A DNA stretch of 63,522 bases, counting the filler, from Reclinomonas americana ATCC 50394 (lineage: Eukaryota): the NCBI GenBank assembly GCA_048213135.1. It is 11 parts of 11 records of this genome, joined end to end, with 100 filler letters (N's around TTAATTAATTAA, not from the genome) between each part and the next. Parts side by side here need not be neighbours in the genome. Positions count along the whole stretch, not along the records: positions 42,213 to 59,409 come from PS016073.1; 10 more parts are not named here. One strand, 5' to 3'. A program made the position numbers and the translations under genes. Numbering within the stretch: position 1 is the first letter of the stretch; the number at the start of each line of letters is the position of its first letter. Shown one piece after another: positions 41,472 through 62,532 of the stretch. Under the pieces are notes generated by a model. The model made no database searches. It was not told where the DNA came from and was given only the letters and a program-made list of their open reading frames with translations.

Positions 41472-42059
41472 ATGGCCTCCTCACTGCCACCACCTCCTCT
41501 CCTCTCTTCGTCAGTAAAGGACGAGGCCGGTCGCGTGACTGTCAAGGTCAGACGTGACACTCTGTGCATACACGAAGCGTCACACATGCGCTCATCCGTC
41601 TTTTCCACGTGCAGTCATACGCAGGCAAGAAACGCGCTGCAGTTGCAGAGGCAGCTGCAGGTGAGTCCCTTTGCCCCCACTTACTCATATGTGGAAGAGG
41701 GCACTCACAGGTGCGTCAACACAGACGGCGAGGCGCCACCTGTGATCAAGCGCAAGTTGTCTCCTCGTCCTCCTCCACCTGCTGCTGCTGCACCTGCGCC
41801 ACCCAAGAGAAAGCAGGAAAGAGCTCCGAGAAAGCGCAAGACCATGAGTGAGCTGCAGCTTCCCGGACCGCTTGTCACGCATTCCGTCTCCAGTGTGGCC
41901 ACAGTGTCGGCTGAGGCACTGCTGATGGGCGTGGCGGAGATGCCGGCACCGGCACCTCGTCCGCAACGAGCTGTCACTGCGTCTCTGCCGACCCGGTCGA
42001 CGAGGGAACCGAAGAAGGGATACGCTTGCAAGTTCTATCTGCAGGGCCGGTGCAAGGAG
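41472..42059 (+). CDS. 5' part of a CCCH zinc-finger protein
   Basis: Pro/Lys-rich exons ending YACKFYLQGRCKE followed by a GTAAGG donor; truncated by gap. Confidence 0.6.
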
Positions 42060-42214
42060 GTAAGGGCGTGTCGCGGGCAATGTCGTCGTTGATTCTGGCG
42101 TGCTGAGTGAGTNNNNNNNNNNNNNNNNNNNNNNNNNNNNNNNNNNNNNNNNNNNNTTAATTAATTAANNNNNNNNNNNNNNNNNNNNNNNNNNNNNNNN
42201 NNNNNNNNNNNNTT

Positions 42215-45200
42215 GTGCCTGCGCGTCCTCCGCCGCCTCCCGCCAAGATCTTCCTGCCGCGTGAGGAGAGCTTGCAGTACGGCGGTGCGGTGTTATGCAC
42301 GTTCCTCATTTTTCTTGCATCTCTCTCACCTCGTCGTGCAGATGTGATTTACTTGCACACGCAGCCGGCACGCCGTGCGGAGGGCAAGACTCGCAGTGGT
42401 GGCTACCTGTCTACTCATGGGTTGCGTCCATCTTGCACAGTCGGTGTGATCGTCGTCGTTGGTGCTCATTGTAGTTGTTGCGCGCAGAACTGGCGATCGG
42501 CGCATTGTGCTGTCGCGTGGCTCGGAAAAATCGCCGCCTGTCGACTTTCAAGGTACAAATCGTCTCTCTTTACCTCTCTCTCTCTCTGTCTCTGTCTCTC
42601 TCTCTTCTTCCTCTCCGTGCTTACATCTCTTTGGCCTGCAGATGCCATGTTCCGCGTGATGCCGCGACAGAGTCACTCGGCACGCTTGCGCTTCGAGAGC
42701 GAGTGCAAGAAGAGCCAGTTCTGGAACAAGAACAAGTATGCCGATGGCGACTTTGTGGACGTGGCACCCGACATGCTGTCGACGCTGGTGCGTGGCAAGA
42801 TTGGCGACGAACTGCTGGCGCACCCGCCGGCCCGTGTTGGCGTCGAGCCCGAGCTGGCGCCCGACCATATTCACGCGCAACCGGGCCACCTCTCTGCTCC
42901 GCTCTCGTGCATGCAACTGTCTGCTGACGGCAAATTGGTGGTGACTGGTCTTGATAACGGCACGTTTTGCTTTCACCGCCTTAATCCGGAGAGCGAAAAC
43001 GGAGTGGAGCCGTCATTTGTGGCGCAAGAGGATTTCAAGTTTAGCGAGACGCCGTTGACGGTGGCGGCCTTTAGCGCGGACAAGAAGTCGATCATTACCG
43101 GTCTCGACAACGGCTTTGTCTTTCTCTGGAATGTGGCGACCGGTACTGTCGAGCGGCGCCTGGAAGGCCCGACCAGCATTGTGGACAGTGTCGGATTGTC
43201 GATGGATCGCAAGATGGCCATCGCAAGTGACCGTGATTTCAAGGTGTATGTGTGGGACTTGACGGTCCACACGCAATCGCAGCCGAAGCATTACATGGCG
43301 GGCCACACCGACTGGGTGCGTTCCGTGTGCATCTCCGCGGATAACACTCGAGCCTTCAGTGGTAGCGACGATCGCCACATTCGCATGTGGTCCATGGAGA
43401 ACGGCCGATGCCTCAAGATCTTGCGAAACCACGTCGACTACGTGCGGTCTTTGGCCATCACTCCTGATGGCCGCTACTTGGCATCTGCCGGTGACGACAG
43501 AAGGATCTGTTTGTGGGAGGTGGACAAGTTGGACAAGCCGGAGCCGCGCATCATCTCTGTTGACGGCTGCTCGAACATCTGCACTATGGCTGCGAATGGC
43601 ACCCATGTCGCCATGGGTGACGACAGCGGTAGGGTACGCTTGTACAGCCACCTGGCGGGCGGTGATCAGTCGCCGGTGGCCGAGGAAGACGATGCGAGGC
43701 ATTCAAGCTCCGTGTCTGCTTTCACCTTCACTGCCGATGGCCGCACGGTCGTTATTGGCTACGAGGACGGTTATCTCCGGGCTTTGTCCGTTGAGGGCCG
43801 ACGACTTGTTGAGCGGCTTGCCGTGCAACCTGCCGGAGGTGCCGTACACAGCATCAGTGCCATTGATCGAGATCACATTGTCGCGGTCTGGCAGGACGCG
43901 AATGTTCGAGCGGTATCACTGCAGACGTGTCAGCTGGTCGATGTCACGACGCTTCCACCCAGCGTCTACGTCGTCCACCGCACGATGTACGATCACCTAG
44001 ACCAGGAGCGGTATCAACTGGACTGTGTGTCTGCCGTGTTCTGCACCACTCTCTCTGGCACCGAGTACAAGGTTGTCGCGTCCGATGACAACACCATAAA
44101 GGTGTTTACGGACCAGCTGGTTGCCGAGCGTTCGTCCGTGCACACTTCTCGCGTGTGCCGCATGCTCCCTGTACGTGTCGCTGGCAGCACCTGCACCTTT
44201 GTTACCGGCAGCCACGACGGCGATCTGGTGCTGTGGACACTGACGTTGGCCGCCGACGGCAGTGTTTCCATCGCCGAAGTTCGCCGCATGTCCGGTCACA
44301 CGGACTACATCCGGTCGGTGTCCGTCTCTCCCGACGGCCAGTACGCCTTCACGGCCTCCGACGACCGCTCTGTGTGTGTGTGGGACCTCACCACGGGCGA
44401 GACCGTGTGCCGCCGTGGTGATTTTGGTGGCTGGGTCTTTTCAGTCGCGTGCTCCTCCAACAACCGCTTCATTGTTGCCGGCGCGGACGGCAACCCAGCA
44501 CGCCTCTGGCGCTGGCAAGAGCGACGTGGAATCGCGCCAGCGCGGCGTCCGCGCGGAGAAGGCGACGGAGATGACGACGATGAGCCGTGGGATGGCATCA
44601 CTGACAGCTCGCCGGAGACTGTTTTCGACTTCAACGGCGATCCGGATGCTGGATGGATCGGTCGAGCCCGCGACATGGTGATTACCCCTGACTGCAACTA
44701 CGTCATCAGCGGTCACGAGGACAACAACATACGTGTGTGGTCCGTCGAGCGCTTGGAGGAGATCGCCATCCTCGGCGGTCACGAGGGCACAGTTGTCAAC
44801 CTCATGCTGCTAGCGCCGCCGGCGCCTGGTGTTCAAGTGCCGTACGACTTGCAGCTGCTGAGCTCTTCCGACGACTGCACTGTTCGCATGTGGAACTTGA
44901 GCTTGAGCTCGGTGGCGGACCCGCAGCATGCGTTTGGACGGCGCTCGGTGGCCACCGGCGAGGTGGTGAAGGAATTCCGTGGTCACTACAAATCCGTCAA
45001 CTCCTTTGCTCTGACGCGCGACGGACAGCGAATTGTTACTGCAAGTGACGATCGTTCTGTGCGCATCTGGGCGCTGGCCAACGCTGAAGTGGTCGACGTT
45101 ATCATGGGCACGAGTCACAGTGATGCCGTTGCTGGCGTCGCCTTGTCCCGCGATGGACGGTTCGTTTTTACGGCCGGCGCCGACAACACCGTGCGCAAGT

Positions 45201-48200
45201 GGGACATTGACACGCATGAACACTTGCATGTGTTCCTTGGCCACACCGACTCGGTGAACTGCGTGGTCTTGACGCAGGACGGTCGCTACATGATCAGTGG
45301 CAGCGACGACTGCGCTGTGCGTATCTGGTCGCTGGAGTCTCAACGCTGCGTTGCATCATTCTCTGACCGCCACTCACGCGCTGTTGTCTCGCTTGCGTTG
45401 TCTGCCGACGATCGTTACTTTGTGAGCTCTGGTCGCGACACTCAGACGATCGTTTGGGACCTCGCGGCTGCAGTGGCAAATGCTGATGGGTACCAACCCA
45501 CGGTGTTGCCCAGCTTCCACACCGACTGGGTCCGCTCAGCGTGCTTTGCGCCCGACGGCTCCTTTGCTGCCGGCTTCGACTTTGGCCACAATGACGAGCT
45601 GACGTTAGCATTCCGTGACGCTCTGTGCAGCGGCGACAGCGGTGCGGTGGTTGTCACTGGTTCCGATGATCGTGTCGTCGTCGTGTGGTTCCGACGACGG
45701 CCCGGAGATAGTTACATGAAGATGTACGAGCTCCGCGGCCACAGTCACTGGATTACATCGGTGTCGGTGACACCCAGTGGCTTTGTTATCAGCAGCGCCT
45801 TCGACAGCTCTGTTCATGTGTGGTCGCTTGGAACAGGCGAGTTGCTGCAGTCGCTGACAATCAAGGACAACAATGGCGAGCCTTCCATACCGAACGCCGT
45901 CACCCACCTCAGCTGGACGTGTACCGCTCAGTCGGCGATTTCTGCTCGTTCGACTCACCGCTTGCACCACGGCGGAGGGCTTGGTAGGAACTTCCGCTAC
46001 GGCTTGGCTGCTTGTGCTGACGGTCGCCTGCGCCTGTGGAACGTCGACAAGGTGGCAGATATGCTGCGGTGGCGAACAGTTGTGCGACGTCGCAGTGCGT
46101 GGCCGGCAGTCAGCAGCTCATCGGCTTCGTCGTTGGCCGACGGGGACAGCGGTGTTGACTTTGATGCGCTCTACGAGGAGACTGCTCAGGTCCTGGAGGC
46201 GCAGATGGTCGAGGAGTTCCGGCACTTGGTGCAGCTGCAGCGTGCTCGCTTGTCCGAGGATACCGAGAACAAATCGGTGACGGAGCGTCTTGGAGGCTTT
46301 GTGATCCGATTCGGTGACGCGGTGCAGTTCAAGCACGAGCGCTCGGGCATGTACTTGGCTGTCACTGCTGATCTCGCTTACACCGACCGCCGTGGTGCTG
46401 CGATGAAGGCCAGTGTCAGTGAGGACGCCGGCAACGCGTTCTACATTGAGTCTGCCACCAGCATTCGCGTGGAGGGCGATGCGGTACGTTGCACTTCGCA
46501 CACTGCTACACTTGAAATAGGGATATGCTGACTCGCATTTTGTAAATTTGTTGTCCTTCCCTCGCAGATCCGTATGGGTGACGGTATTCGTCTGTGCAGT
46601 ACGCAGTACCAGTTGTACGTCCACCCCAGCGACCATTACTTCAAGGACAACCGCAAGCACGAAATCATTGGCGCCAAGCACCACACTCGGTGGACCATCC
46701 ACCAGTACACTGACTTCTCGTGCCCGCGAGATGTCCTCAAAGCCGGTGTGTTGCTTGTCGTCACTGAATGTTCCCTGCCGTGTACGATTTTTCGACTTAC
46801 CACTCGAGAACAATGCAGGTGACGTGTTGTACTTGCATCACAAGCGGACGAATGGCTTCCTCAGTGCGCACGACAACAGCGACTTGTCCATGCCGGCAGA
46901 GCAAGGTCAGTAGGTGTTGTCGTAATTTTCGTCCCTGCTCCACTGTAAGAGTCAATTGACGTCTCTTGCTGCGCAGGCCATTTGCGTGTGTCGCCGGCGG
47001 GTGAGCACATTAGCCGCGAGCAACTGTTCTCTGCGAGCAGCATGTGGGAGGTGGAAACGGAGTCTATTACCACTGGTGCGTCTCGCTTGTACAACAACAT
47101 GGTTGATTGGTTGATTTGATCGCTGACGTGTCGTTGCTCAGGTGGTCCTCTGCGCTGGAAGTCGTGCATCCGACTGAAGCATGTTGCCACTGGGCGGTAT
47201 TTGACGCAGAAGCGTCAGCATGGTGTGTACATTCGGAGTAATGAGCTCTTGCACTCTTGTGGTTACTTGCTGACATGCAAAATGGTGACGTGCGTGGCAG
47301 ACGGAAGCCGTGTGCTGGCAACGTGTGACACGCGCCGTCCAAGCACTGTGTTTGTGGTGCTTCCGCTGCTGGAGGTATTGTTTGCACCTACGCTGTGTGC
47401 GCACGATCTATAGGCACTGATACATTGCGCGTGATTATCGTACAGAGCGAGGGACTGATTCAAGTCGACGATCATTTCTTGTTGTTCCACAAGAAAACGC
47501 GGTCGCTACTGCGTGCTGACCTCGGCAAGAAAGCCACAGACAAGCATGACGGTCGCTCCCGCAAGCTTCATCTCACTCTGTCGAGCAACGACGGAATCCC
47601 GCCGGATGAGGACGCGTTCTTGGCTCACGTCGCACCCCCCGACGATCTTGGCCGTCTCTACAAGGCGTGCTCACTGAAAGGAGCCTTTGTGCGCTTTGTC
47701 GAATCGGTACACTCGCAACTTTGCAGAATTGTCTCACCTTGTATCTCGTCTTACTCACTGGCTTGTTTGTTTCATCGTAGGTTGGATCGCAAGACCTGAG
47801 TGTTGCTTGCGGTGTGCCCAAGTTCCTCAAGGCCGAGGACGCACTGAACGAGCTGGTGAGCATGTGCACGGAACAGGCGACGCGACAACGAGATCGCTGG
47901 AACCAGCGTCTCTTGCGACAACTTGACGTGCGTACGATCATGGCCCGCTTGCCATGCGTGTGTGCGAACACCCCTTGCTGACTCAAGACGTTGTTGCCGT
48001 TGGCAGATTGTGCACGCAAGTTTCACCATTCTTCGCCGGCGGCTGCAACTGGACGCCGAAATCTCACCCGAGAGCGAGTCCGACGAGGAAGACGACGATG
48101 CGACGGCGTCCATGGCTGGCGAGGGTGGACTGGACACAGAAGCTGATGTCGTCGGTGCTGGTGAGGAGGAGTCCGACGAGGACTACGACGATGGATCAAT

Positions 48201-51200
48201 TGACGATGAAACGGAGGAGGAGGATCCCAGCAGCCGCGAGAAGCGTCTCGTAGTTCTGTGCTGCAAACTGTTGCGCGGCATTGTGACGGGGTCCACGACA
48301 GGCCAGGAAGAAGTCTTCTTCTCCCGACGCGGCTATCTACAAATGCTAGCAGACCTACTGAAGGACGACGACGACGACGTGGCTGACCAAGCGGCGTACG
48401 CCATTTCGGAGGTGTTCCGTGACAACTCGAAGCTGTTGCACAGTGAGGGCTGCCGACGATTCATCAACGACATGGTGGAATTGTTGATTTATCGCAACTG
48501 GTCGAATAGCTGGAAGATCATGGCGCGAATCTTCGACATTCTTCGCACGCTGTGCGTGTGCAACGGGCGCAGTGTCCCCGGCAACCAGCGTGTTGTGTTG
48601 GAGCATTTTGCCCGCTGCATTGACTTTAGCAACGAGCGAGAGCCGAAGCCGTTTCAGGGCCAGTTGGTTTATGGTCTTATCGGTGTCAGTCTCGAGGGGC
48701 AGGTGCGTTTGCTGTTTTTGAAGTAGCTTGGTGAAGGTCCATTGACGCGCGTTCCTCCTTGTACAGGTCATGAAGGTTGCCTATCGCTGGGACGGCTTCC
48801 AAGACGAGCCGACCAAGGTGAACCTGCAGGATGCGGTCACCAAAACGGACGAGGACGAGGAGGCCCTGGTGCATGCTCTCCGACTGCAGCTGGAACTGAT
48901 CGCAGCTTTGTGCTTGGTTTGTCATGTCAGTTTCCCGAGACTTCTAATCTCAAAGTTCACGTCTCGCGCGCTGTGCAGAATCGTCGAGTGCCGACTCGTG
49001 AGACTCTGCCACGCGCAGATCGAATTGATCAAGCACTGTTCACCATGATCGAGCACACTCTTTCGCGGGACGTGTTCGAGGTGGCCAAGATACTCGTTGA
49101 GACCGATCCTCGAGGCCGGACACAGGCCACTTTGGGAAAGGCAATTGATGAGCGGCTGCAGAAGGGGGCTGATAGTTTGCGCAAGGCCGCTGCTATCTTC
49201 ATCCAGTACCGATTCGTTGACGTGGATCCGTTCTTTGAGCGTCCCGTGCTGTACTCCACTGAGGCGACGGCGGAGCAAGAAGCAGCAGTGCCAATCAATT
49301 TCGACCAGGGAGCAGGTATCGAGATGCAACCCATGGGTGCATCCGGTGGAGACGATCGGAGAACGCGAGGTATGGCGCTTGGATCGAGCTTCATTCTTTC
49401 GTGTATCTTCTGCTCACTTCATCGCTGACTTTTTGTTTGTTTGTGCGGGGACAGGAAATGAAAAGCCACCCACGGCGGCGTTCCGCGATGTCATTATTGA
49501 GCTGCTCCAGGGCAAGACCAACCCGAGCTCTCTGCTTTCAACAGTTACGTTGCTTATGTCGTGCACTCGCAAGTGTCCCGTTGCTGACAACTCTTTTCTG
49601 CGCCAACGTGCGTGAACAGCTGCTTCAGTCGCTTTCTGTGCTTGTGCGTTGGGGTGAGGTGCCGCTGGACCATTTCGACCAGATCGTCGAGGGTGTCCGG
49701 AAAATGCTCGAGTACCACAATCCAGGTGTGTATGCTGTTGCTGGCTTTTCGTTTACTTCTCCAGAATGTGCCGCTGACCGTTTCACTTGCGTGTAGACAT
49801 CAAGGAGACCAAGCGATACGACTCCCTACCTGCCAATGACATGGTTGTGCGTTGCAAGATTGACTGCCTGGTGCTGCTCAATGACCTCTTCGATGTGCGC
49901 CTGCGGCATCGAGTGCGCCGCCTGCTGCGCGAGTACTTGGCGAACGGTGCGCCTGCCGCCAACTCGGTTGTGTCGAGAGAGCATCTGGAGACCTTGTTTT
50001 TGGTGTGTACGCTTGATTTGTGACGCAACGCTGTCCAGCAAGTCTGTTGCACGCTGAACATGGCTTCACGTTTTCCGCACTTGCAGGAGGAATGGAAGGA
50101 CTTTTGGAGTGCCAAGGAGGAGGATAAGATGGCGCATTTGCTGCTTGACTTGTGCAAGTATGACTATCCAAACATCCGTCTGCCTGCTCTGCAGCTCCTG
50201 TTCCGCATCCATCGGTAAGATCACGCCACCAATTCCACTGTGTGTCCTGTACCAGCAGGACGCTTGTCTGACCGTCTGCGACCTTGTGCCTACTCGCAGT
50301 GATGCAGAGGAAGTGTGCGATGAGCTACGCTCCGCAGTATTCAAGTCGGTGTACGATGCGGAGGTGGTGGATGTGGCAAGCAACATTGCAGCGCTCCAGG
50401 CCCGCGGTACTCGAGTGACTGATTCGGAGGGTGACCGACGCAGTTGCATCGACGGAATTACACGGATCCTCAACGGTTTGTGCCCGTGCATCAGCGTGTG
50501 TTGCATTCCGTGCACTTGCTCATCCCAGGCATGCGCACACAGCCCTTGTCGCTCGTGATGCGATTGTGAAGGAGTGGCGACAGGCTCTTGATGGACTGCG
50601 GTACGCGCCGAACCCAGTTGCGCGTCAAGCGTCGATTCGGATGCTAGAAACTCTTGCCATTGGTGAGCACGTGGAGTAGTCACTCATGATAGTAGTGATT
50701 TCAGCCACTGATGTGTTGGTGGCAGAGCTGGAAGACAGAATGCCCGAGTTCGAGTCGTCGCGACTGCGTGCAGTGTTGAAACGATTCCTCGATGCGCCGA
50801 CTGCGCGACAGCGTCAAGCGGACATGCACATGATTGAGGAGCTGACGCGAGGTGCGTGGAGTCACCATAGTGCATTGTATTCCGGGTCAGTCGGTCAAAT
50901 CTTCTTTTGTGCAACCAACAGAGGTGACCGAAAGCGAGCTGCCACTCCGTCGCACCCAGCAGTTGTTGCATCAACTCCACATGGATCGCTCCGCCATTGC
51001 ACTGCTCAAGCTGCCACTGGATTATGTGTACCAGGGCCGCCAAGCACAATCTCCAGGGGACACGTCGGACAGTGAGGCCTCTATGACATTCCTGTTCACC
51101 CAAATTTACCGCTTGCTTACTCTGGTACGGCAAAACCGCAAGTTTGTGCAGACATGTTGCCATCGTCATCTGATATTTTGTGGCATTCTCGCTGTAGATG

Positions 51201-54200
51201 GTGCGGCACAACCGTGCGAACCAGAAGTGGTGTGCGTCGCACCTCGAGTTGTTCATGAAGCATTTGCGGTGAGTCAAACGCTGAAGTTAGTTACATTTGC
51301 TCTGACAGCAAGTTGTCTCAATGCATGTGGTTCGGTAGGTTCTTTGATCCGGAAGAGCAGAGTCCGAAGCGCGCGGAGAAGGCGAAATTGCATCGTACCG
51401 TGGTGCGCTTCCTCACTGAGCTCCACGAGAACAATCACGCACTGTGCCATGGAGCCCCCAAGGAATACGTGGCCGATATTCTTGGTCTCATTATCAAGTA
51501 CGGTCGCCACGAGCGCTACTTGAAGATGCTCTCTGTGTTGCTGGAGCCCAGTGGACAAATCATGCCCGACAAGCAGCAGCAGGTCATGGATCTGTTGCTG
51601 GAGCACAACGCGTACGAATTGCTGCCGTTCATGTTGCGTCACTGCCGTGCCTCTGTTTGTTCAGCTGCCTGCCGATATCTTATTTCACTCGTTATTCTGG
51701 ACACAGTGTTCGATCTCGGCGAAATCTTGATGCCGGTGGAGAGGACGAGTATGATGACAGCGAGAGCGGTCCTGGGGCACAAGAGGAAGACGACGAAGAC
51801 AATGCCTTGGTGGAAGACAATGCCGACGACTTTGATGGCGACGACGGTCCGTTTGAGGACGACGAGTACCATTCATCGACGGAGCAACTGTACGACTACA
51901 GCCTCGCTGCTTTCAAGATGCTTACTCAGTGCGCCAAAGGAAAGCAGAGAACACACATGGTCTGTCCGTCCTTGAAGTGTTTCTTGCGGTGCGTTATTGT
52001 GCATCACCGATTCGTTTCGTGTCGCCACCGCAGGCCGAGACCATGTGTCAGAGTTTGCTCCCTTTCCAAAAGGCTTTCGAGTTGCGCCAATACTTTGGTG
52101 ACGGGCCAGTGTTTGATTTCGTGTACGAGGTCTACGTCAACACGGAGCTGCGAGCAAATGCCGTGAAGCCCAGCGATTATCACCAGTTTTTGGAACTGGT
52201 GGGGGACGACTTGTTGAGGGTGATGGTCAACAATTTGTCGTCGGATGCCGTCAATCCAGGAGACGTAGATGTCGACGGTTCGCTTCCTCCCGTGCTCGCA
52301 GTTACACGCACTTTCTCCTCATGTTTGTCTTTAATGCTCTGTAGTTGACCCTGATGAAGCCGGCGAGTCCTCTGTGCGTGAGGCGTTTGAGCAACACTGG
52401 GAAGCCTCGTGTAAGGATCGAAAGGAACATTTGGAAAGTATTTTCCTTCATTATGTACCTGTTCTCGTCGGTGGCCTCGAATCACCGTTGGCTACGTATC
52501 ACAACGATTTCCTGGATGGCAATCCGTTGCGTTCTATGACATGGCGACGTTAATCGTCTTTGCTCCTCTCTCTTATTTGCACATGCGTTCTCTCGTACAG
52601 GCAAGAAAGAAGTCGGCTGTCGAACTTGGCTGGCGATCTCCTGCGCGTGGTCAGAAACTGTTCCACTGACCGCTGGGTCAAGGAGGCCGAGGAGCTGCGG
52701 AAGGCTTACCAACTCGGCAGCGGAAATCCTGACGAGGGCTCCGCTCATGACACGGTGACAGCCTCGCAGCAAGGGTCCGGCGGGCATCGTGACCCAAGTC
52801 GGGCTTTGTCCTCACCGACCTCGCCGACGCGGGAGACGACGCTGGACTTTGAATTTGGCGTGGCAGTCGACGACATGACCACCGACGATTTCAGTGACGA
52901 AGAAGAGATGGAGGACGCGCTGCTGGACAAGACTAAGTCGCCATCGAGTCCGCAACATCGCCCGTCGTCGGCGACTCGTGGAGGCCCTCACAGTCGACGA
53001 GCCAAGAAGTCATGCTGCGGATGGCTGTGTTGTGGATGTACTCGATGCTGTGCTGCGGACGACGCCGACGACAATGGTCGCGCGGGTGCTCCATCGGCAC
53101 CCACCAAGGCAGCGGCGCTTGCCAAGCACGTCAAGCAGTTGCGTCTCTTTAGGTGCCCGTCGCTCAATTCGTCGACTGTATTTGACACTGGTCGTGCCTG
53201 TGAGCAGTGAGTACTTTGAGTTTGAGCGTGAGCAGCTATCGGCTTGCTTCCTTGAGCACGACGACGAGGCACGCCGCCGGCGCGCGGCGGTCAATCGCCC
53301 TTCGCTCTTCCGACGGATCTTTTGCTGTGGCCGTGCCAGAGGCAAGGCGGATTTCCATCACCAGTCGTTCGAGGCCCGCCGACTCAGCAACAAGCACGTT
53401 CGCTATTTGTACCTCGTCCTCGCGCCAGCGTTGCGTTCTTTCCTCGCTCGTGTTCGTGATTGAATCCATCTCTCAACCAATGCCCACTTACCACAGTACC
53501 ACGGAAGAAGGCCGCGATTCGAAGATCTACCATGAGCCGGTGATCAACAGCTTGCAGACGCTGACACGAGTGCTTGACGCCAATTACAAACTGGCCGTGC
53601 GTGAGCACAACCCGGACCCGAAGCCGCTGGTGGACAACCAAAACACCCTGTGTCAGCATGGATATGTGGGGCTGATGTTGCAGCTGCTGATCAGTTCCAC
53701 TGAGGAGGTCATGCAGCGTGCGCTCGAGTTTGCCATTGCCATGCTTCAGCGCGGCAATCGCCGAGTGCAGGAGGCTGTGCTAAACTTTTTCAGAACTCAT
53801 CACGATCACGGCTTTTTCCACTTTGTCCGGCAGCGCTTGCGTCGCACATCACTGGAACTGGCCGAGACGAGCCGGCACGAGGAGGCTGGCCAGGTCGGTC
53901 AGGAACAACGCCGTGAGATGCAGCGAGATCTTGTTACAACGGAGAAAATCCTGCGTCTGCTGCAATTGTTGTGCGAAGGCCACTTCCGACCGTTGCGTTT
54001 GCACCAGCAGAGATGTCGCGGGTGAGCAAGTGGCACTCACATTCTGCGGCGGTGCGCACAACAGGCTGCAGGATTATCTGCGCGAGCAGGCAGACTATTT
54101 GCACACTGTGGACCTCGTCAGTGAGACTGTGCAGTTTCTTGACGACACCGAGCGATTCATCAGATCTGGCAGTCTCACGTTGAGTATGGCTGACCAGACA

Positions 54201-56041
54201 TTCTGCACGCTGTCGGAGCTAGTGCAGGGCCCGTGCGTGGAGAATCAGGTGAGATGAGTGCTGCTGGAATGTGTGGCTAGAGTCGTTGTGAATGTCGACG
54301 ACTCATGTGCGTGTGCTTCAGAAACGACTTGCCACCTCAAAACTGTGCTTCGTCATCAACCGCATTCTTTTGCGTCACTTTGTGCCAGCGCTGGAGATTG
54401 AGCGCGACTTCCGCGCGATCGGTCGATTTGAAAGCGGCCGGGTTGAGCGGCAGCGTAACAACTACGAAGTGTTGATGCTTCTGGTGAGTGCGGCAGTACA
54501 TGGTGGTCATTGCAGTCCTGCACTTGTTTGTTCATGGTGTTGTGTTTGTGTGTCTGGCAGCGCAATGCACTGGTCTGCGTCAACAGTTTGATGGAGGGCG
54601 GACAGACGGTCGACGAGGATGTGTTGCACTCTGTGCTTGGCGGTTTCGATGTGCGTTACTGTCGATTTTACTTGCGGGGTATCGTTTGCTTCGGTCGTCG
54701 TAACCATCTCCCCCACGTCTGTTGTGTGCAGTTGCGCAATGTGCTCCGGTGCCATGACCTCATTGTGCAATATCTCGGCGGTCGTCTCAGTGACGGCGAC
54801 ACGTACGACCCAGTGCTGGACAAGCGCGTCACGTCGTTGACCACTGTGGTGTGTGTCACCTTTCAGCACTTGCGCGAGAAACGCTGTGTTGCTGAGGTTT
54901 CGTTGATATGTGTTCTGCGCAGCCGAACATGAGCAGCATCATGGCGGACGACATGGACTCGTCGATTGAGGAGAGCGATTCACCACACCATGCGCACCTC
55001 AAGATGCTCCGCACGCAGTTCGAGTTCGGCATGTTGTGCTACTTCCTGACGCGCCAACTCAAGACGCTGGACCCCAACTTCCTCTCGGACTCGGTGGTTC
55101 AGGTGCCGGATGATTTCGCGCTGTACCGACGGTACGCTGGTCACGTGGAAATTCTGCGTGACGATCAGCTGGAAGACGTGTACTATGTGATTCCCAACTC
55201 GGCCTTCTTCTTGCCCGAGTCGACCATGGAGAACTTCACGCTGTCTGTCAACCGTGACAGTGCGAGCGCGAAGATTGGTGGCCTGCTTTCCGAGTACCCC
55301 AAGTTCTTGCGCATCATGGATCACCAGGAGAAGCTGCAGCGCAGCTGGATCTTCCGACTCATTAACGGCTCAAAGAGCACGCTCAAGACGTTTACATTCA
55401 TGCTGGCCCTGGCCATCAATCTTATTCTTCTCCTGACGTCGGTGGTCACTGATCGCCCCACGGATGACACTGTGTTGCGTCTTCTGTCCATCGCTGCTGT
55501 TTCTCCGTTTCATGTCGCTCATCTAGAAGGTACAGCAACGTGGACTTCAATTCGGATGGTATCAGCGGACTGCTCCTCGCTCTCGGCATCTTGCAGCTCA
55601 TCACAGCATTTGCGATCTGTGAGTGACTTTTTGTGAGCCTGCCGCCGTTTGTGTGTCTGGTAGCTAATAGGCACTCTGCTTTACAGTATCGATCTACTCG
55701 ATCGGAGAAGCGTACACCACAATCTTAAATCGCTGGCCTACCAAGAAGCAGCGAAGGGTCTGTAATAGCTGTGTTCTTGTCTGTGAACGTTGTCGGACTA
55801 CTGACGCTTGTGGATGCACATTTGTAGGAATCGCGTTCGGAGCGTCTCTCGCAAGCCAAATGGCGGCGTCCCGATAATTCCACTGATTTTACGGCTGTCG
55901 ATGTGCATCCGTTCAGCCACCATCGATCCAAATGGTGGTTCAGCTTTGTGTTCCTCTGGTTCTTGTTCCGCGATAACACGTTTGTGTATCAGGTGCGTGT
56001 CTCTGTGTGTGCCGGCTGTCGCTGACGCAGTGTGTTAATAC

Positions 56042-56100
<59 letters not shown>

Positions 56101-57973
56101 ACGCGCAGTTGATGTATTTGATTGCCAGTATTCTTGGTCTCGCGGTGTCGCCGTTCTTCTACGCGTTGCGTTGTGATTACTGGACACTGCAGTGGGTGTG
56201 AGTGTTTGTGCCGGGCCTGACTGTCTCGATGCGCGATGCAGCTTCCACTTGTTCGACATTGTCACACGCTTCCCCGATTTGCGAAATGTGATTCGGTCGG
56301 TGACAAAGAACTGGGCTCCTCTGCTGCTGACGGTGCGGTGGCGTGCTTGTGTGCATTCCTGTTTTGCTCTCGCGACTTATCCTCGTTTGCTGTGTTTGTG
56401 CGTACGTGCAGTTTGGTGCGTGTGACACGGTTGTGTGTGCCTTCTCGTTCATACTCCCTAACATGCATGTGTACTTGTCTGCGTCTGGCGCACGTCGTGA
56501 TTGCAGCTCTCGGTGAGTGCATTTGTGATTCCTTGCCATCTTGTGCTGTTGTTGATCTCACTCGTCCTGTGTCACCTCACAGGTGTCTTTATCGTCTACG
56601 ACTTTTCGGTTTCGTCTCACTGTCCCCTGTGTATGTGTCGCTGTTGTGTTGTTCCAACGCCCTCTGTGCAGATTTTCGCCTACTTGTTCTACAACTACGA
56701 GTTCCAGCTGAATCCCGACAACGCAATCCCGAACAGTCCCACTTTCCTGTGCGACTCGTTCATCTCGTGCTTCTTCTACTATTTCAACTTTGGGTGCGTC
56801 GTGTTCCGTCCCGCTCTTCTGTTGTTTGTCACTCCCCTTCTCACGTCATCATTCATTGTTCGCACGATGCAGACTGCGAGGCGGGTCACAGTTCGAGGTA
56901 AATTGCACAGAGAGTCTGATGTGGGTACATGTCGTGAACTGATCCCTTTTTTGCGTGCACACAGTCGTTCTTCAAGACGGATGCCTCCGTTGGCCGCGTG
57001 TTCTTCGACCTGCTGTTCTTCTGTTCCGTCCATGTTTGTTTGCTTGTTTCTGCGACCTCGATCCCACACGTGCTGACACGCTTTTCGCTTGCCGCGCAGT
57101 CATCATCATCACGGTGACACTGAACCTCATCTTCGGTGCGTGCCTGTCGGCTGCAATCAGTGAATCCACGGTAGCGTACGCATGCTCACCGTTGCGACAG
57201 GTATCATTCTCGACACGTTTGGCGACTTGCGTAACGAGAAGGAGAAGCGCGAGGAGGATCACGGTAACAAGTGTTTCATTTGCAACCGTGGAAGGACAGA
57301 CTTTGAGCGATCCGGCAACGGTACGCCGTGTACTGCTGCTGCTGCTGCTGCTGCTGCTGGTTGTGTGACGTTGATGGCAATGACTTTTGTTGTCTCCTCC
57401 ACTCACAGGCTTCGAGAACCACATCTACGAGCAGCACAATATGTGGGCCTACGTATTCTTCCTGGTTCGTGCGCGTGCTTGCATCAAGTGTGGTATGCCT
57501 GCTGACTGCGTTCATGCACCGCAGGTGTATCTGACCAAGAAGGACTACACCGACCTCAGCGGCACCGAGCAGTACGTGCTGGAACTGGTGAGGACAACGC
57601 TGTCTCGCCTTGGGTTTGAAGCTGCCACTTCTGTGCTGCTAACACACAGTGAGACACGCAGGCGCGCACCAACGACCACTCGTTCTTCCCCATCGATAGA
57701 GCCATTGTGCTCGAGCGAGCGGCGAACGACGCCAAGCCGGACGCGTCCGGCACGGGTCTGCTGTCGGCACTGGGTCTGTCGGGCGTCGCCGGCTCGAGTG
57801 GCTCGGGCTCATCGTCGGACCCCAACGCTGACACGCAGCTGGTCGAGCAACTCAGTCGCTACAGTGCCCCGCAGCTTCTGCGCTCCGTCCGAGCCATTTC
57901 GCTCGCTCTCGACAAGAAGTACGAGGCTGCCGCAGCAGCCGCAGCGGCAGCGGCCAGCAGTGGTGGCGACTAA
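42215..57973 (+). CDS. Inositol 1,4,5-trisphosphate receptor / RyR-family Ca2+ release channel with an inserted WD40 block; ~50 introns, 5' end cut by gap
   Basis: Suppressor domain (LQYGDVIYL..GYLSTHG..AMFRVMP / IRFGDAVQFKH..FYIE..GDAIRMGD), MIR (GDVLYLHH, WEVE, IRLKHVATGRYL), RIH regions, RIH_assoc (RLLQLLCEGH..LQDYLREQ, LSELVQGPCVENQ), TM region ([43 protein letters not shown]), Zn finger CFIC..H..HNMW. Confidence 0.93.
42883..46042 (+). repeat. ~21 divergent WD40 repeats within a single 3.8-kb exon of the channel
   Basis: GH..WD/WS units such as GHTDWVRSVCISADNTRAFSGSDDRHIRMWS and GHTDSVNCVVLTQDGRYMISGSDDCAVRIWS; count made by eye. Confidence 0.85.
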
Positions 57974-58458
57974 ACGAGCCTTTGTAAAACTCATATCCAT
58001 CCAGTTTTGATTTGACTGCTGTGCAACCCACAACCGATCTTCACCACGCACCACACTCGCACACTTGAAGCCGGCATGCGTCACATGTTTACAATACTGT
58101 GTAGTGACCACCGAGAGACGGTCAGCTTCCCCCAGGGCATGGACGGGATTTTCTTCGACTCTGCAGCGATGCGTGAGGCGAACTACACGTTTCGGCGTTT
58201 TGGTCTCAGAGACCACGCTGTTTTTTTTTCTTTCTTTCTTTCACCATGGTGGTGTTCGTTGCCTTTGCTTTCTCACCGCGCGGTCTTTCTCCGCCTCCCG
58301 CACAGCTGCTTCATCTATCTTGTGAGAGCCGCAGACAATTGTTTGTCCTCATCCATTCTCCTTGTCACTCTCTCTTGCGAGCGCGTTCACACCCCGCCCG
58401 CCTTCTCTCTCTTGTTTGCTTGTGTATACGTGTGTGTGTCTGAGTGGTGATCAGCGGC

Positions 58459-59409
58459 ATGAGGACGTCAGTGACTGTGGCACTGACGGTGGTGAGCCTC
58501 GTTGTGGTGGCGACGGTGATGATGATGAGTGAGCAGGCAGAGGCCAAGGGTCAAGACTATTACACACTGTTGGGAGTCAAGCGCGGTGCAACGCCCGCGC
58601 AGATCAAGGTGAGCCGAGTGCAATTTGGTTTGCGTGCGAGTGACGCGTGTCACTTGCACGTCATCATCATCGTCATGTTCACTCCCACCTCATCACGATT
58701 GCACGGAGTAAGACGATGTGCATCACGTGTGTATGAGACAGAGAGTGTGCGTGAGAGGGAGAGAGGGAGAGAGAAGTTGGGAAAGGCAAGGCATGGCGGG
58801 CATGTCAAGTCACTGACTCTCTCTCCGTCACTGTCTCTCTTTTGCACGCAGCGATCATATCGTAAGATGGCGTCCAAGATGCACCCGGATCTGCATCCGG
58901 GCGACAAGAAGGCGGAGGAGGTGTGGATGGAGATCACTCGTGCGTACGAGGTGTTGTCGGACGCGCGACAGCGTGAGATTTACGATCAGCAGTTGCGCGA
59001 CGAGTGTGGCGACCATGAGCGACGACGAAAAAAAGCGACTCACACTCTCATGTGCGCGCCACACACAGTGGCGAGGAGGGCGTGAATCAGTCGGGTCACC
59101 AGCAGCAGCAGCAGGGCGCCACCATCAAGTTGCGTTCTCGGTTTCAGTTGTCACTGTCAGCGTCGTGCGTGTATTGACTTTGGCGCTTGTCGACGTGCAG
59201 TTTCGGTGGTCCCGGTGGCTTCACCATCAACTTTGGCGGCCCCAACGACGGCGAAGACAAGTACGAGGTGCCGAAGGGACCCGATCTGGTGATGGACTTG
59301 CCGATCAGCCTGCGCGATCTGTATCTGGGTCGTGAGTTGGAGGTGCGTCGCCAATGCCAGTGTGCGCGGAAAGAGTGTGTGAGAATGACGGCTTGTCGCT
59401 GCGTAGATT
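58459..59409 (+). CDS. DNAJB11: ER-luminal DnaJ protein (ERdj3/DNAJB11-like), 3' end cut by gap
   Basis: Signal peptide, DYYTLLGV, HPD, AYEVLSD..YDQHGEEG, G/F region, PKGPDLVMDLPISLRDLYLG. Confidence 0.82.
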
Positions 59410-61086: not shown

Positions 61087-62532
61087 GCGCTCGAACAGAT
61101 GTGCTGCGTGCCAGCCAAGTANNNNNNNNNNNNNNNNNNNNNNNNNNNNNNNNNNNNNNNNNNNNTTAATTAATTAANNNNNNNNNNNNNNNNNNNNNNN
61201 NNNNNNNNNNNNNNNNNNNNNCATCAGCATCGATCGCCACCACATGCATGTCAAACAGACTGACAGTGCAGGTGCACGCAACTCACAGCGCCGGTGCGAT
61301 CCGCGAGGATTTGCACCTCAATGTGGCGCGGGCGCTCAATGAACTTCTCCACAAACATGGAGCCGTCGCCGAATGCCTGCTTGGCCTCCGAGGATGCACG
61401 ATTGAATTGCTCCGGCAGCTCCTCCTTGTCGCGCACGACACGCATGCCGCGGCCGCCGCCACCCGCAAGCGCCTTGAGCATCACCGGGAAACCAATCTTC
61501 TCCGCCAGCGACACAGCCTCGTCTACCGAGGCCACTGCCTTGTTGCTGCCGGGCGACACTGGAATGCCAGCGGCCTTGGCGGTCTCCTTGGCCACGGTCT
61601 TGAAGCCCATCTTCTCGAGAATGTCCGGCGGCGGGCCGACAAACGTGACGCCACGACGGCGGCACTCCTCTGCCATGCGCGGGTTCTCCGACAGGAAGCC
61701 GTAGCCGGGATGGATCTGTGTCGAAGGTAAAGAGTCAGCTCACAGCGTGGCGCTCACGCACAGCTGTGTGACAAAGACGCACCGCCTGGCAGCCAGTGCG
61801 CACAGCCACATCGACGATCTGCGACAAGGGATCAGACACTGCGGATGATGCACTCTCAAGTGCAATGCCAGCGACACACCTCAGGAATGTTGAGGTAGGC
61901 ACCGATCGGCGTCTGACCCTTGCCAATCAGATACGACTCATCGGCCTGCGACGAGGGTGTGTCGATCAGCACCAGCTTTTCGGGACATCTCATGACGGAA
62001 TGATGAAGAAAGACAAGTGGAGATAGAGAGACAGAGGCGCACACTCATACAGAGACACACGGTGAGAGCAACGCGCACATAGCGCACGAGCAGAGAACAC
62101 AGAAAGCGACGCAAAACACAAAGATTCCCTCTCACTTTTCGAACAGCGCATGATAGTGTGCCTTTCTCTCTGTGCGTGCGTGTGTCTTGACTGACCTTGG
62201 TGCGGTGCATGGTGGTGCTGTCCTCCTGCGAGTACACGCCCACAGTGCGGATGCCGAGCTCTGCACACGCGCGGAAGATGCGAGTGGCAATCTCACCACT
62301 GTTCGTCACAATCGCATCTTAGTAACAGAAAGAGAGCGAGAGAGGCAGCAAGTGTGTGTGTGTGTGTGAGCGAGAGAGTGAGCGTGTGTGTGACTCACCG
62401 ATTGGCCACGAGCAGCTTGGTGATTGGGCGGATGACGGCGGGATCGGCGGCCTTGGGCGCGGTGATGAATCGGCGCTGCTCGCCACCGCGGAGGAGCACA
62501 TTGGTGCCCGCGCGACGTGCAAGGAGCAGCAT
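59510..62532 (-). CDS. PC: Pyruvate carboxylase with mitochondrial presequence; 5' half, spans a gap
   Basis: [78 protein letters not shown]. Confidence 0.95.

What the first reader, a model, noticed from the sequence alone, without database searches (positions are those of the whole stretch)
42642..46483. WD40 insert is one 3,842-nt intronless exon in a gene with ~50 introns
Seen: the rest of the channel is interrupted roughly every 100-300 nt, while this block has no intron. The NACHT-WD40 part of the gene at 838-4453 is also intronless although its caspase part has several introns. Inference: WD40 cassettes were acquired as processed (retro) or horizontally transferred DNA and shuffled into different effector proteins.
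Basis: partly seen in the sequence, partly recalled or inferred. Interest (0 to 1): 0.7.

Follow-up and report, generated by a model that had tools for sequence, protein, structure and literature searches.

The report
WD40 propellers inserted in calcium channel
A protist gene for an IP3-receptor-type calcium-release channel carries about twenty WD40 propeller blades in one uninterrupted 3.8-kb exon, placed inside its N-terminal regulatory domain and framed by strong splice signals, which shows one way a new domain can be grafted into an intron-packed gene.

Summary
Window 42642-46483 is one open 3,842-nt exon. My ab initio model of its gene has 48 other short introns (median 74 nt) and other exons of 25-696 nt (median 120). 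At that density about 23 introns would be expected in this exon.

The block is a true insert. The exon starts and ends with consecutive parts of the channel's N-terminal beta-trefoil "suppressor" domain. Its tail aligns to IP3R1 residues 91-174. Three splice-compatible mini-exons upstream supply the earlier part; that alignment rests on my recall.

New here: the WD40 array is bracketed in frame (3,417 nt, phase 0/0) by a consensus donor at 42788 and the best-scoring acceptor of the exon at 46204. Removing it would leave normal exons of 146 and 279 nt. I read this as intron-free WD40 DNA that landed in a short intron, which is now retained or perhaps optional.

A cassette shared with the NACHT-WD40 gene is not supported: 27-34% identity, no DNA similarity, different codon usage. 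Retro or horizontal origin stays open. Best database hits reach 22-30% identity, and codon usage is host-like.

No RNA data or whole genome were available. Earlier notes of this scan report intronless WD40 genes elsewhere in this genome.

The parts
42113..42212 (.). Scaffold linker (44 N, a 12-nt six-frame stop spacer, 44 N), 430 nt upstream of the exon. The 5' end of the gene, including the start codon, is lost here.
   Evidence: 10 such linkers in the window
42215..42284 (+). Mini-exon A (cut by the contig start): start of the first beta-trefoil repeat of the suppressor domain. No in-frame ATG.
   Evidence: donor at 42285; intron score at the 82nd percentile of the gene's introns. Homology to IP3R1 is by recall only.
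42342..42420 (+). Mini-exon B (79 nt), with a GTTGCG-type donor at 42421. The DP prefers an alternative donor at 42409 in the same phase.
   Evidence: its GDVIYLH... repeat aligns to the gene's own downstream trefoil repeat, E = 8e-4
42488..42552 (+). Mini-exon C (65 nt). It ends in phase 1, matching the phase of the giant exon.
42642..46483 (+). The finding: exon D, 3,842 nt, phase 1 at its start, open throughout.
42642..42787 (+). Host part on the N side (146 nt): suppressor-domain sequence up to the first arm helix, with F/V/H at the 1-8-14 spacing.
   Evidence: and reading; PMC3685217 passages for the motif positions. The alignment itself is recalled.
42788..46204 (+). In-frame 3,417-nt segment (1,139 codons, phase 0/0) that holds the whole WD40 array. 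It is bounded by a consensus donor and by the best-scoring acceptor of exon D.
   Evidence: donor 3rd of 285 GT, acceptor 1st of 172 AG; rough joint chance 0.001, post hoc
42872..46045 (+). WD40 blades, about 20 (19-21), enough for three propellers.
   Evidence: Pfam WD40 305 bits; 22 HMM stretches; AF2, 77 strands; Foldseek top hits: tandem propellers
44134..44187 (+). The only candidate hidden short intron (54 nt, 3n, intron-like codon use). It encodes a strand of blade 10, so it is probably coding.
46205..46483 (+). Host part on the C side (279 nt): second arm helix and second trefoil repeat. From 46214 it aligns to IP3R1 residues 91-174.
   Evidence: E = 1e-5; Ins145_P3_rec profile positions 80-158/161
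46568..57973 (+). The remaining 45 exons of the channel: MIR, RIH, RIH_assoc, transmembrane region, S6 and C-terminal zinc-finger-like motif, with the stop codon at 57971-57973.
56873..56897 (+). 25-nt microexon that completes the pore-loop motif.
841..4469 (-). NACHT-pentapeptide-WD40 gene used for comparison: two ORFs split by a 14-nt frame-breaking insertion at 2098-2111.

Best explanation
Exon D encodes about twenty WD40 blades, roughly three propellers. They are inserted in frame into the loop between the two 'arm' helices of the N-terminal beta-trefoil (suppressor) domain of an IP3R/RyR-superfamily calcium-release channel.

The array most likely arrived long ago as a single intron-free piece of WD40-coding DNA. 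It landed in a short phase-0 intron at this position. The old donor (42788) and acceptor (46204) survive. They now lie 3.4 kb apart in a gene whose other introns are at most 203 nt, so the interval is normally not removed and is read through as protein. That produces the giant exon.

Functionally, each subunit of the tetramer would carry a propeller platform on the domain that couples ligand binding to gating. This would be a built-in docking or sensing module.

Shown: the anatomy, the open frame, the domain homologies and the splice-signal bracket. Inferred: the insertion history, the retention and the function.
For: 1. Insert inside the domain.
- The exon tail aligns to IP3R1 residues 91-174 and to Pfam Ins145_P3_rec positions 80-158, so the first ~90 residues of the domain must lie upstream.
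- Three upstream mini-exons join exon D in phase, with splice scores at the 57th-82nd percentile of the gene's introns. An independent DP run recovers them.
- Exon B matches the gene's own trefoil repeat (E = 8e-4).

2. Channel identity.
- MIR 27.5 bits, RIH 43 bits, RIH_assoc 57.4 bits.
- The S6 exon matches IP3R1 2583-2617 (E = 3.8e-5), and 51 of 51 hits are IP3R or RyR.

3. WD40 array..

4. Bracket.
- The donor ranks 3rd of 285 GT and the acceptor 1st of 172 AG in exon D.
- Both lie in the two boundary zones that were fixed beforehand.
- The interval is 3n and phase 0/0, and the flanking pieces of 146 and 279 nt are normal exon sizes.

5. Translated and old.
- The frame is open over 1,139 codons.
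- The linker zones have coding-like codon use: +0.20 to +0.26 per codon, against a maximum of 0.09 for real introns.
- RSCU r = 0.864 against the channel, within the range of 0.82-0.92 between blocks of the channel itself.
- Blades are diverged (28% identity) with no DNA self-repeats.
Against: - No RNA evidence of any kind.
- The gene model is ab initio. Its codon model was first trained on exon D, so the codon-usage comparison is partly circular.
- The alignment of the N-side flank to IP3R1 residues ~8-84 rests on my recall. Unspliced pieces gave no Pfam or PDB hit, but a control exon of known identity also gave none.
- I noticed the bracket post hoc.
- The branch-site motif upstream of 46204 lies 44-50 nt away, against 11-37 nt in the 25 of 48 introns that have one.
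- The two linker zones sum to 243 nt, more than a typical intron.
- No relative of the gene was found with which to date the event.
Confidence: 0.6

Rival explanations
1. The WD40 DNA was inserted directly into a pre-existing coding exon of about 425 nt, by capture at a break or as a retro-copy. The donor- and acceptor-like motifs at its edges are chance.
For: The frame is open and the linkers have coding-like codon use. GTGCGTGG-type motifs are common in this genome: 5 in exon D and 18 on the non-coding strand of the contig. The branch motif is poorly placed.
Against: Both sites are among the very best in the exon, both sit in the boundary zones, and they are in frame (rough joint chance 0.001 before allowing for post hoc choice). 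No poly(A) relic or target-site duplication was found.
Confidence: 0.2
2. The module once had introns like the rest of the gene. It lost them all in one event, by recombination with a partial reverse-transcribed copy of the mRNA.
For: An intron-free span flanked by normal exons is what a single conversion tract would leave.
Against: The tract would have to coincide with the module. It would also have to leave splice-like sites at both of its edges. WD40 arrays are uninterrupted in a second gene of this window. Earlier unchecked notes report the same elsewhere in this genome.
Confidence: 0.08
3. The 3,417-nt interval is a real intron that is always spliced out. The channel protein then has no WD40 module, and the open frame is a relic or a nested coding unit.
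For: Strong donor and acceptor sites; removal gives an arm of near-canonical length.
Against: The interval has 1,139 stop-free codons in phase with both flanks, host-like codon usage and about 20 recognisable blades. There is no stop codon to end a nested gene. The interval is 17 times the longest other intron.
Confidence: 0.07
4. Artefact: a chimeric contig, or bacterial contaminant DNA joined to a eukaryotic gene.
For: The assembly is fragmentary, with 10 linkers in 63.5 kb. The named best hits of the array are bacterial.
Against: There is no N within 42213-59409. The two flanks are consecutive halves of one domain in one frame. Codon usage matches the channel. Best identities are only 22-30%.
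Confidence: 0.03

Closest known systems
IP3 receptor type 1, N-terminal suppressor domain (PDB 1xzz, 3uj0, 3t8s; full length 3jav, 6mu1)
   Same: The exon tail aligns to residues 91-174. The family's MIR, RIH and RIH_assoc domains and the S6/C-terminal region follow. The arm helices and a flexible arm loop of this domain are described in PMC6385359 (passages).
   Different: About 1,100 extra residues of WD40 blades sit in the arm loop. The rest of the channel is very divergent: the RIH exon finds no IP3R in the PDB or among 1.84 billion representatives. The pore-loop motif differs from the animal one, which I give from recall.
RACK1 and G-beta-gamma, WD40 propeller proteins that bind and regulate animal IP3Rs in trans
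   Same: These are WD40 propellers acting on an IP3R. Both are listed as partners that enhance or activate the channel in PMC4887697 (passages).
   Different: Here the propellers are part of the channel polypeptide. My memory that RACK1 binds near residues 90-110 could not be checked, because Patterson 2004 is not held. No sequence kinship with RACK1 was tested.
Exitrons (exon-like introns inside coding exons; Marquez et al. 2015, PMC4484396)
   Same: A coding, stop-free interval of 3n length, inside an exon, bounded by splice sites. Its removal would give an internally deleted protein (abstract and passages).
   Different: Splicing is not shown here. This interval has strong splice sites, whereas Arabidopsis exitrons have weaker ones than other introns. 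It encodes whole folded domains. That paper traced most exitrons to ancestral coding sequence, not to insertions.
Tandem WD40 propeller arrays (PDB 2ymu; UTP/Pwp2-type tandem propellers; Apaf-1)
   Same: Fold: Foldseek E = 2.5e-41 to 2ymu, with 500 or more matches at E <= 0.001.
   Different: Sequence identity is 11-18% in those alignments. None of those proteins is embedded in a channel.
NACHT-pentapeptide-WD40 NOD-like receptors, reported as transferred from Mycoavidus to Mortierellomycota (PMC11291939)
   Same: This applies to the comparison gene at 841-4469, which has NACHT, pentapeptide and WD40 domains. The paper reports that xenologs tend to have few introns (passages).
   Different: The channel's array is not a close relative of that gene's array. 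No transfer was tested for either gene.

Membership tests
IP3R/RyR calcium-release channel superfamily | N-terminal beta-trefoil domain (Pfam Ins145_P3_rec) | tested here: met
   28.7 and 24.1 bits against a cutoff of 23. PDB IP3R1 residues 91-174, E = 1e-5. Only the second part of the domain was matched by a tool.
IP3R/RyR calcium-release channel superfamily | MIR, RIH and RIH_assoc domains in order | tested here: met
   MIR 27.5 (cutoff 25.6); RIH 43.0 (cutoff 22.3); a second RIH at 18.9, below its cutoff; RIH_assoc 57.4 (cutoff 28.5).
IP3R/RyR calcium-release channel superfamily | C-terminal pore-lining helix S6 followed by the conserved cysteine/histidine region | tested here: met
   The 39-residue exon matches IP3R1 2583-2617, E = 3.8e-5. 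All 51 of 51 hits are IP3R or RyR.
IP3R/RyR calcium-release channel superfamily | Selectivity-filter motif of animal channels (glycine-rich, ending in D; recalled) | tested here: inconclusive
   The pore loop reads GLRGGSQFE after joining a 25-nt microexon. The comparison motif comes from memory.
IP3-gated receptor in the strict sense | Basic residues that coordinate IP3 in the binding core | not testable with these tools
   The binding-core exon found no IP3R in the PDB, and spliced sequence could not be submitted to the tools.
WD40 beta-propeller | Repeated four-stranded blades matching the WD40 profile | tested here: met
   Pfam WD40 305 bits, 8 stretches; 22 stretches with a repeat HMM; 77 strands in the AF2 model, mean pLDDT 66.4; Foldseek.
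Processed retro-copy insertion | Poly(A) relic and target-site duplication at the edges | tested here: not met
   No A-run of 4 or more in 46000-46260. The only shared 9-mer is the donor-like motif, and its two copies are in different frames. The event is old, so absence is weak evidence.
Recent horizontal transfer from bacteria | Foreign composition and a close bacterial relative | tested here: not met
   GC3 0.715 against 0.69; RSCU r = 0.864, inside the within-gene range. Best identities are 22-30%. An ancient transfer is not excluded.
Exitron | Both spliced and unspliced mRNA forms observed | not testable with these tools
   No RNA holder was listed.
HNWD/NWD-type hypervariable WD40 arrays with highly similar repeats | High identity between repeats, maintained by concerted evolution | tested here: not met
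   Channel blades average 28% identity (128 of 210 pairs had 20 or more aligned columns) and show no DNA self-hits. The NACHT gene's blades average 51% (28 pairs), with 24 off-diagonal DNA hits.

The most novel reading that the evidence does not exclude
The WD40 block is a 3.4-kb exitron: a complete three-propeller module that the cell can splice into or out of its IP3R-type channel. It was created when intron-free WD40 DNA landed in a short phase-0 intron that the short-intron splicing machinery could then no longer remove efficiently. If so, 'insert into a short intron, lose splicing, gain a domain' could be a general route of domain grafting in intron-dense, short-intron genomes. That would fit the other grafted modules that earlier notes report in this genome.
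Probability: 0.2. Interest if true: 0.85.

Novelty: new variant of a known kind. Interest (0 to 1): 0.62.

Why it matters
For calcium signalling, this would be an IP3R/RyR-type channel with a large protein-binding platform built into the domain that couples ligand binding to gating. WD40 proteins such as RACK1 and G-beta-gamma are known to act on animal IP3Rs only in trans.

My full-text searches listed no paper describing such an architecture, judged from titles and abstract openings. A 2020 comparative paper on the ER calcium system (PMC7016017) contains neither 'WD40' nor 'propeller'.

For gene evolution, the anatomy is unusually legible. Flanking exons are of normal size, strong splice sites sit at both edges of the module in the same phase, and there are no internal introns in a gene that otherwise has one every 170 nt. 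A single RT-PCR could show whether a whole folded module is constitutive, optional or a retained intron.

Tried and rejected
- RNA evidence: no RNA holder was listed for 42213-52212.
- Whole genome: none is held. Genome-wide exon sizes and paralogous channels without the insert could not be examined.
- Relatives of the gene:
  - The 'longer' search with the exon gave 41 generic WD40 hits at 20-35% identity.
  - The RIH ORF search was limited to 505-2000 aa and found nothing.
  - The representative search with the RIH exon gave 3 hits, all HEAT/ARM proteins.
  - The metagenome scan with the junction region found none confirmed among 136 pattern matches.
  - A look-up of earlier notes by sequence found nothing.
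- My first reading, a plain N-terminal fusion with the contigs unordered, was wrong. I dropped it.
- Tool confirmation of the N-side flank failed on unspliced pieces. A control exon of the same gene also failed, so these blanks say nothing either way.
- Splice-site scanning for hidden introns discriminates weakly: 672 candidates on the plus strand of the exon against 605 on its minus strand.
- Other 3n candidates in poorly modelled loops (42788-42991, 45541-45630, 46082-46204, 46052-46204) have coding-like codon use and were rejected.
- Period-7 similarity between propellers: none.
- BLASTP self-comparison printed no off-diagonal hits for either array and was replaced by blade-level alignment.
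- The first alignment, of 65 sequences, failed internally. A 17-sequence alignment was used instead.
- The Atlas search on the tail scored 0.85, a lead only.
- Patterson 2004 is not held.


Full report
**Setting.** The window is a scaffold of 11 contigs joined by 10 identical linkers (44 N, a 12-nt stop spacer, 44 N). The linkers appear to join true neighbours. A biotin-carboxylase gene on the minus strand runs Biotin_carb_N, CPSase_L_D2, then across the linker at 61122-61221 to Biotin_carb_C. The finding lies in the contig 42213-59409, which contains no N. The contig upstream (35690-42112) carries La/RRM, MFS, DCC1-like and other ORFs but no channel domain.

**The exon.** Frame 42161..46531 (+) is open for 1,456 codons. 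It is the longest real ORF in the window. The 910-codon ORF at 5921-8653 runs through an N gap. Pfam finds WD40 at 305 bits over most of the exon, and the IP3R/RyR N-terminal domain in its last 90 residues.

**The gene.**
- Downstream ORFs carry MIR, RIH, a weaker second RIH and RIH_assoc (71 ORFs scanned).
- A 39-residue exon matches the end of S6 of IP3R1 (2583-2617, E = 3.8e-5). All 51 of 51 hits are IP3R or RyR.
- A DnaJ gene follows after the stop at 57971-57973.
- I built the model with a home-made dynamic-programming splicer. I corrected it by hand at two places where conserved motifs showed the path.
- The result is 49 exons, 48 GT-AG introns and at least 4,001 codons.
- Introns are 52-203 nt (median 74). 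The other complete exons are 25-696 nt (median 120).
- With one intron per 170 nt of CDS, 22.6 introns are expected in exon D (P(0) = 1.5e-10).
- The model is ab initio and certainly imperfect. Other runs gave 44 and 52 introns downstream. The contrast with exon D does not depend on the details.

**It is an insert, not an N-terminal fusion.** I first read it as a fusion and was wrong.
- The exon tail aligns to IP3R1 from residue 91 onward and to Pfam profile positions 80-158 of 213. The first ~90 residues of the domain are therefore missing downstream.
- Exon D begins in phase 1. In the 430 nt before it, three mini-exons (to 42284, 42342-42420, 42488-42552) join it in frame through introns of 57, 67 and 89 nt.
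- The splice-site scores of these introns lie at the 82nd, 57th and 68th percentile of the gene's other introns. A DP run started at the contig edge recovers them, with an alternative same-phase donor for exon B.
- Exon B carries a trefoil-repeat motif that aligns to the gene's own downstream repeat (E = 8e-4).
- The exon C/D junction has F, V and H at the 1-8-14 spacing. PMC3685217 describes that spacing for residues 53-66 of rat IP3R1 (F53, L60, Y66; passages).
- By my recollection of the IP3R1 N-terminus, the spliced product aligns to residues ~8-84. No tool tested this. Unspliced pieces are too short to score, as is a control exon.
- The array therefore sits between the two arm helices of the suppressor domain. 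PMC6385359 describes that loop as the most mobile part of the domain (passages).
- No start codon lies in the contig, so the 5' end of the gene is in the gap.

**Hidden introns.**
- Strong donor motifs are at background density in exon D: 5, or 1.3/kb, against 3.9/kb downstream and 1.05/kb on the minus strand.
- Only 4 of the 48 introns would be invisible, meaning 3n in length and stop-free.
- Two patches have intron-like codon use (codons 491-520 and 894-921 of the exon's reading frame, counted from 42647). Both encode blade strands.
- An AlphaFold2 model of the insert was built from a 17-sequence alignment (mean pLDDT 66.4, pTM 0.41). It models the two patches as strands at pLDDT 60-84 and 90-96.
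- Other 3n GT-AG pairs in poorly modelled loops have coding-like codon use.
- One 54-nt candidate (44134-44187) cannot be excluded without RNA.

**The bracket.**
- Scoring every GT and AG of exon D with the gene's own splice-site matrices, the donor at 42788 ranks 3rd of 285. That is the 92nd percentile of the true donors.
- The acceptor at 46204 ranks 1st of 172, the 83rd percentile of the true acceptors.
- Each falls in one of the two zones between host sequence and the first or last blade. These zones were defined earlier.
- The interval is 3,417 nt, exactly 1,139 codons, with phase 0 at both ends.
- A rough joint chance is 0.001, but I noticed the pattern post hoc.
- Removing the interval would leave exons of 146 and 279 nt and an arm about seven residues longer than my recalled count for IP3R1.
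- The branch-site motif is inconclusive.
- The linker zones have coding-like codon use, so they have long been translated.

**Origin.**
- The channel array and the NACHT gene's array are not one cassette:
  - They share 27-34% identity, against 22-28% to unrelated database arrays.
  - They show no DNA similarity.
  - Mean inter-blade identity is 28% for the channel array against 51% for the NACHT array.
  - GC3 is 0.715 against 0.492, and RSCU r = 0.04.
- The channel array has no period-7 signal and no DNA self-repeats.
- Its codon usage matches the rest of the channel: r = 0.864, against 0.82-0.92 between contiguous blocks of the channel. This test is partly circular.
- In the 'near' search 1,077 proteins scored E <= 0.001. 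The best 120 reach 22-30% identity. The 13 that carry an organism name are all bacterial.
- No poly(A) relic or target-site duplication was found.
- The event is therefore old and the donor cannot be identified.

**Other long exons.** In this window the only other multi-kb uninterrupted coding stretch is the NACHT-pentapeptide-WD40 gene. It is broken by a 14-nt insertion. The next ORFs are 1.6 kb or less, and where Pfam matches at all it covers only part of them. Earlier notes of this scan report intronless WD40 genes and other grafted modules elsewhere in this genome. I did not test those notes.

**Function (inferred).** The suppressor domain couples ligand binding to gating (PMC4887697, PMC3685217; passages). 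A propeller platform in its arm could dock partners or sense a ligand. Whether the channel binds IP3 could not be tested.

**Literature.** Searches listed no paper on a WD40-bearing IP3R/RyR channel, judged from titles and abstract openings. PMC7016017 has no occurrence of 'WD40' or 'propeller'.

Noticed in passing
window 2098-2111 (- strand): A 14-nt insertion containing stop codons interrupts one WD40 repeat of the NACHT-pentapeptide-WD40 gene and shifts its frame. It may be a pseudogene or an assembly error.
   Followed up: partly
window 841-2850 (- strand): The WD40 part of the NACHT gene has GC3 0.49, against 0.63 in its own NACHT part and about 0.7 in the channel gene. Its repeats keep 65-68% DNA identity to each other.
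   Followed up: partly
window 42421, 51633, 52526, 53992, 55474, 56165: Six of the 48 modelled donors are of the GTTGCG type. Five of them follow an exon that does not end in G. This agrees with the shifted-donor class reported in earlier notes on this genome.
   Followed up: partly
window 56873-56897: A 25-nt microexon is needed to complete the pore loop. The loop then reads differently from the glycine-rich filter of animal IP3R/RyR, which I give from recall, so ion selectivity may differ.
   Followed up: partly
window 5869-5968 and nine further sites: Ten identical linkers (44 N, a 12-nt six-frame stop spacer, 44 N) join the contigs. A biotin-carboxylase gene continues across the one at 61122-61221, so the order seems real.
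   Followed up: partly
window 42020-42059: The contig upstream ends, at a GTAAGG donor, in an ORF whose last residues look like the start of a CCCH zinc finger. Its phase (0) does not fit exon A or exon D, so it is probably another gene.
   Followed up: partly
window 58444-59400: A DnaJ-domain gene starts a few hundred bases after the channel's stop codon, on the same strand. One gene model read through into it.
   Followed up: no
window 56469-56671: This is the longest modelled intron (203 nt), in the transmembrane region. It probably hides a missed small exon.
   Followed up: no
window 42788 and 46095: The same 9-mer, a consensus donor-like motif, occurs in both linker zones of the insert but in different reading frames. 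I took this as chance.
   Followed up: yes
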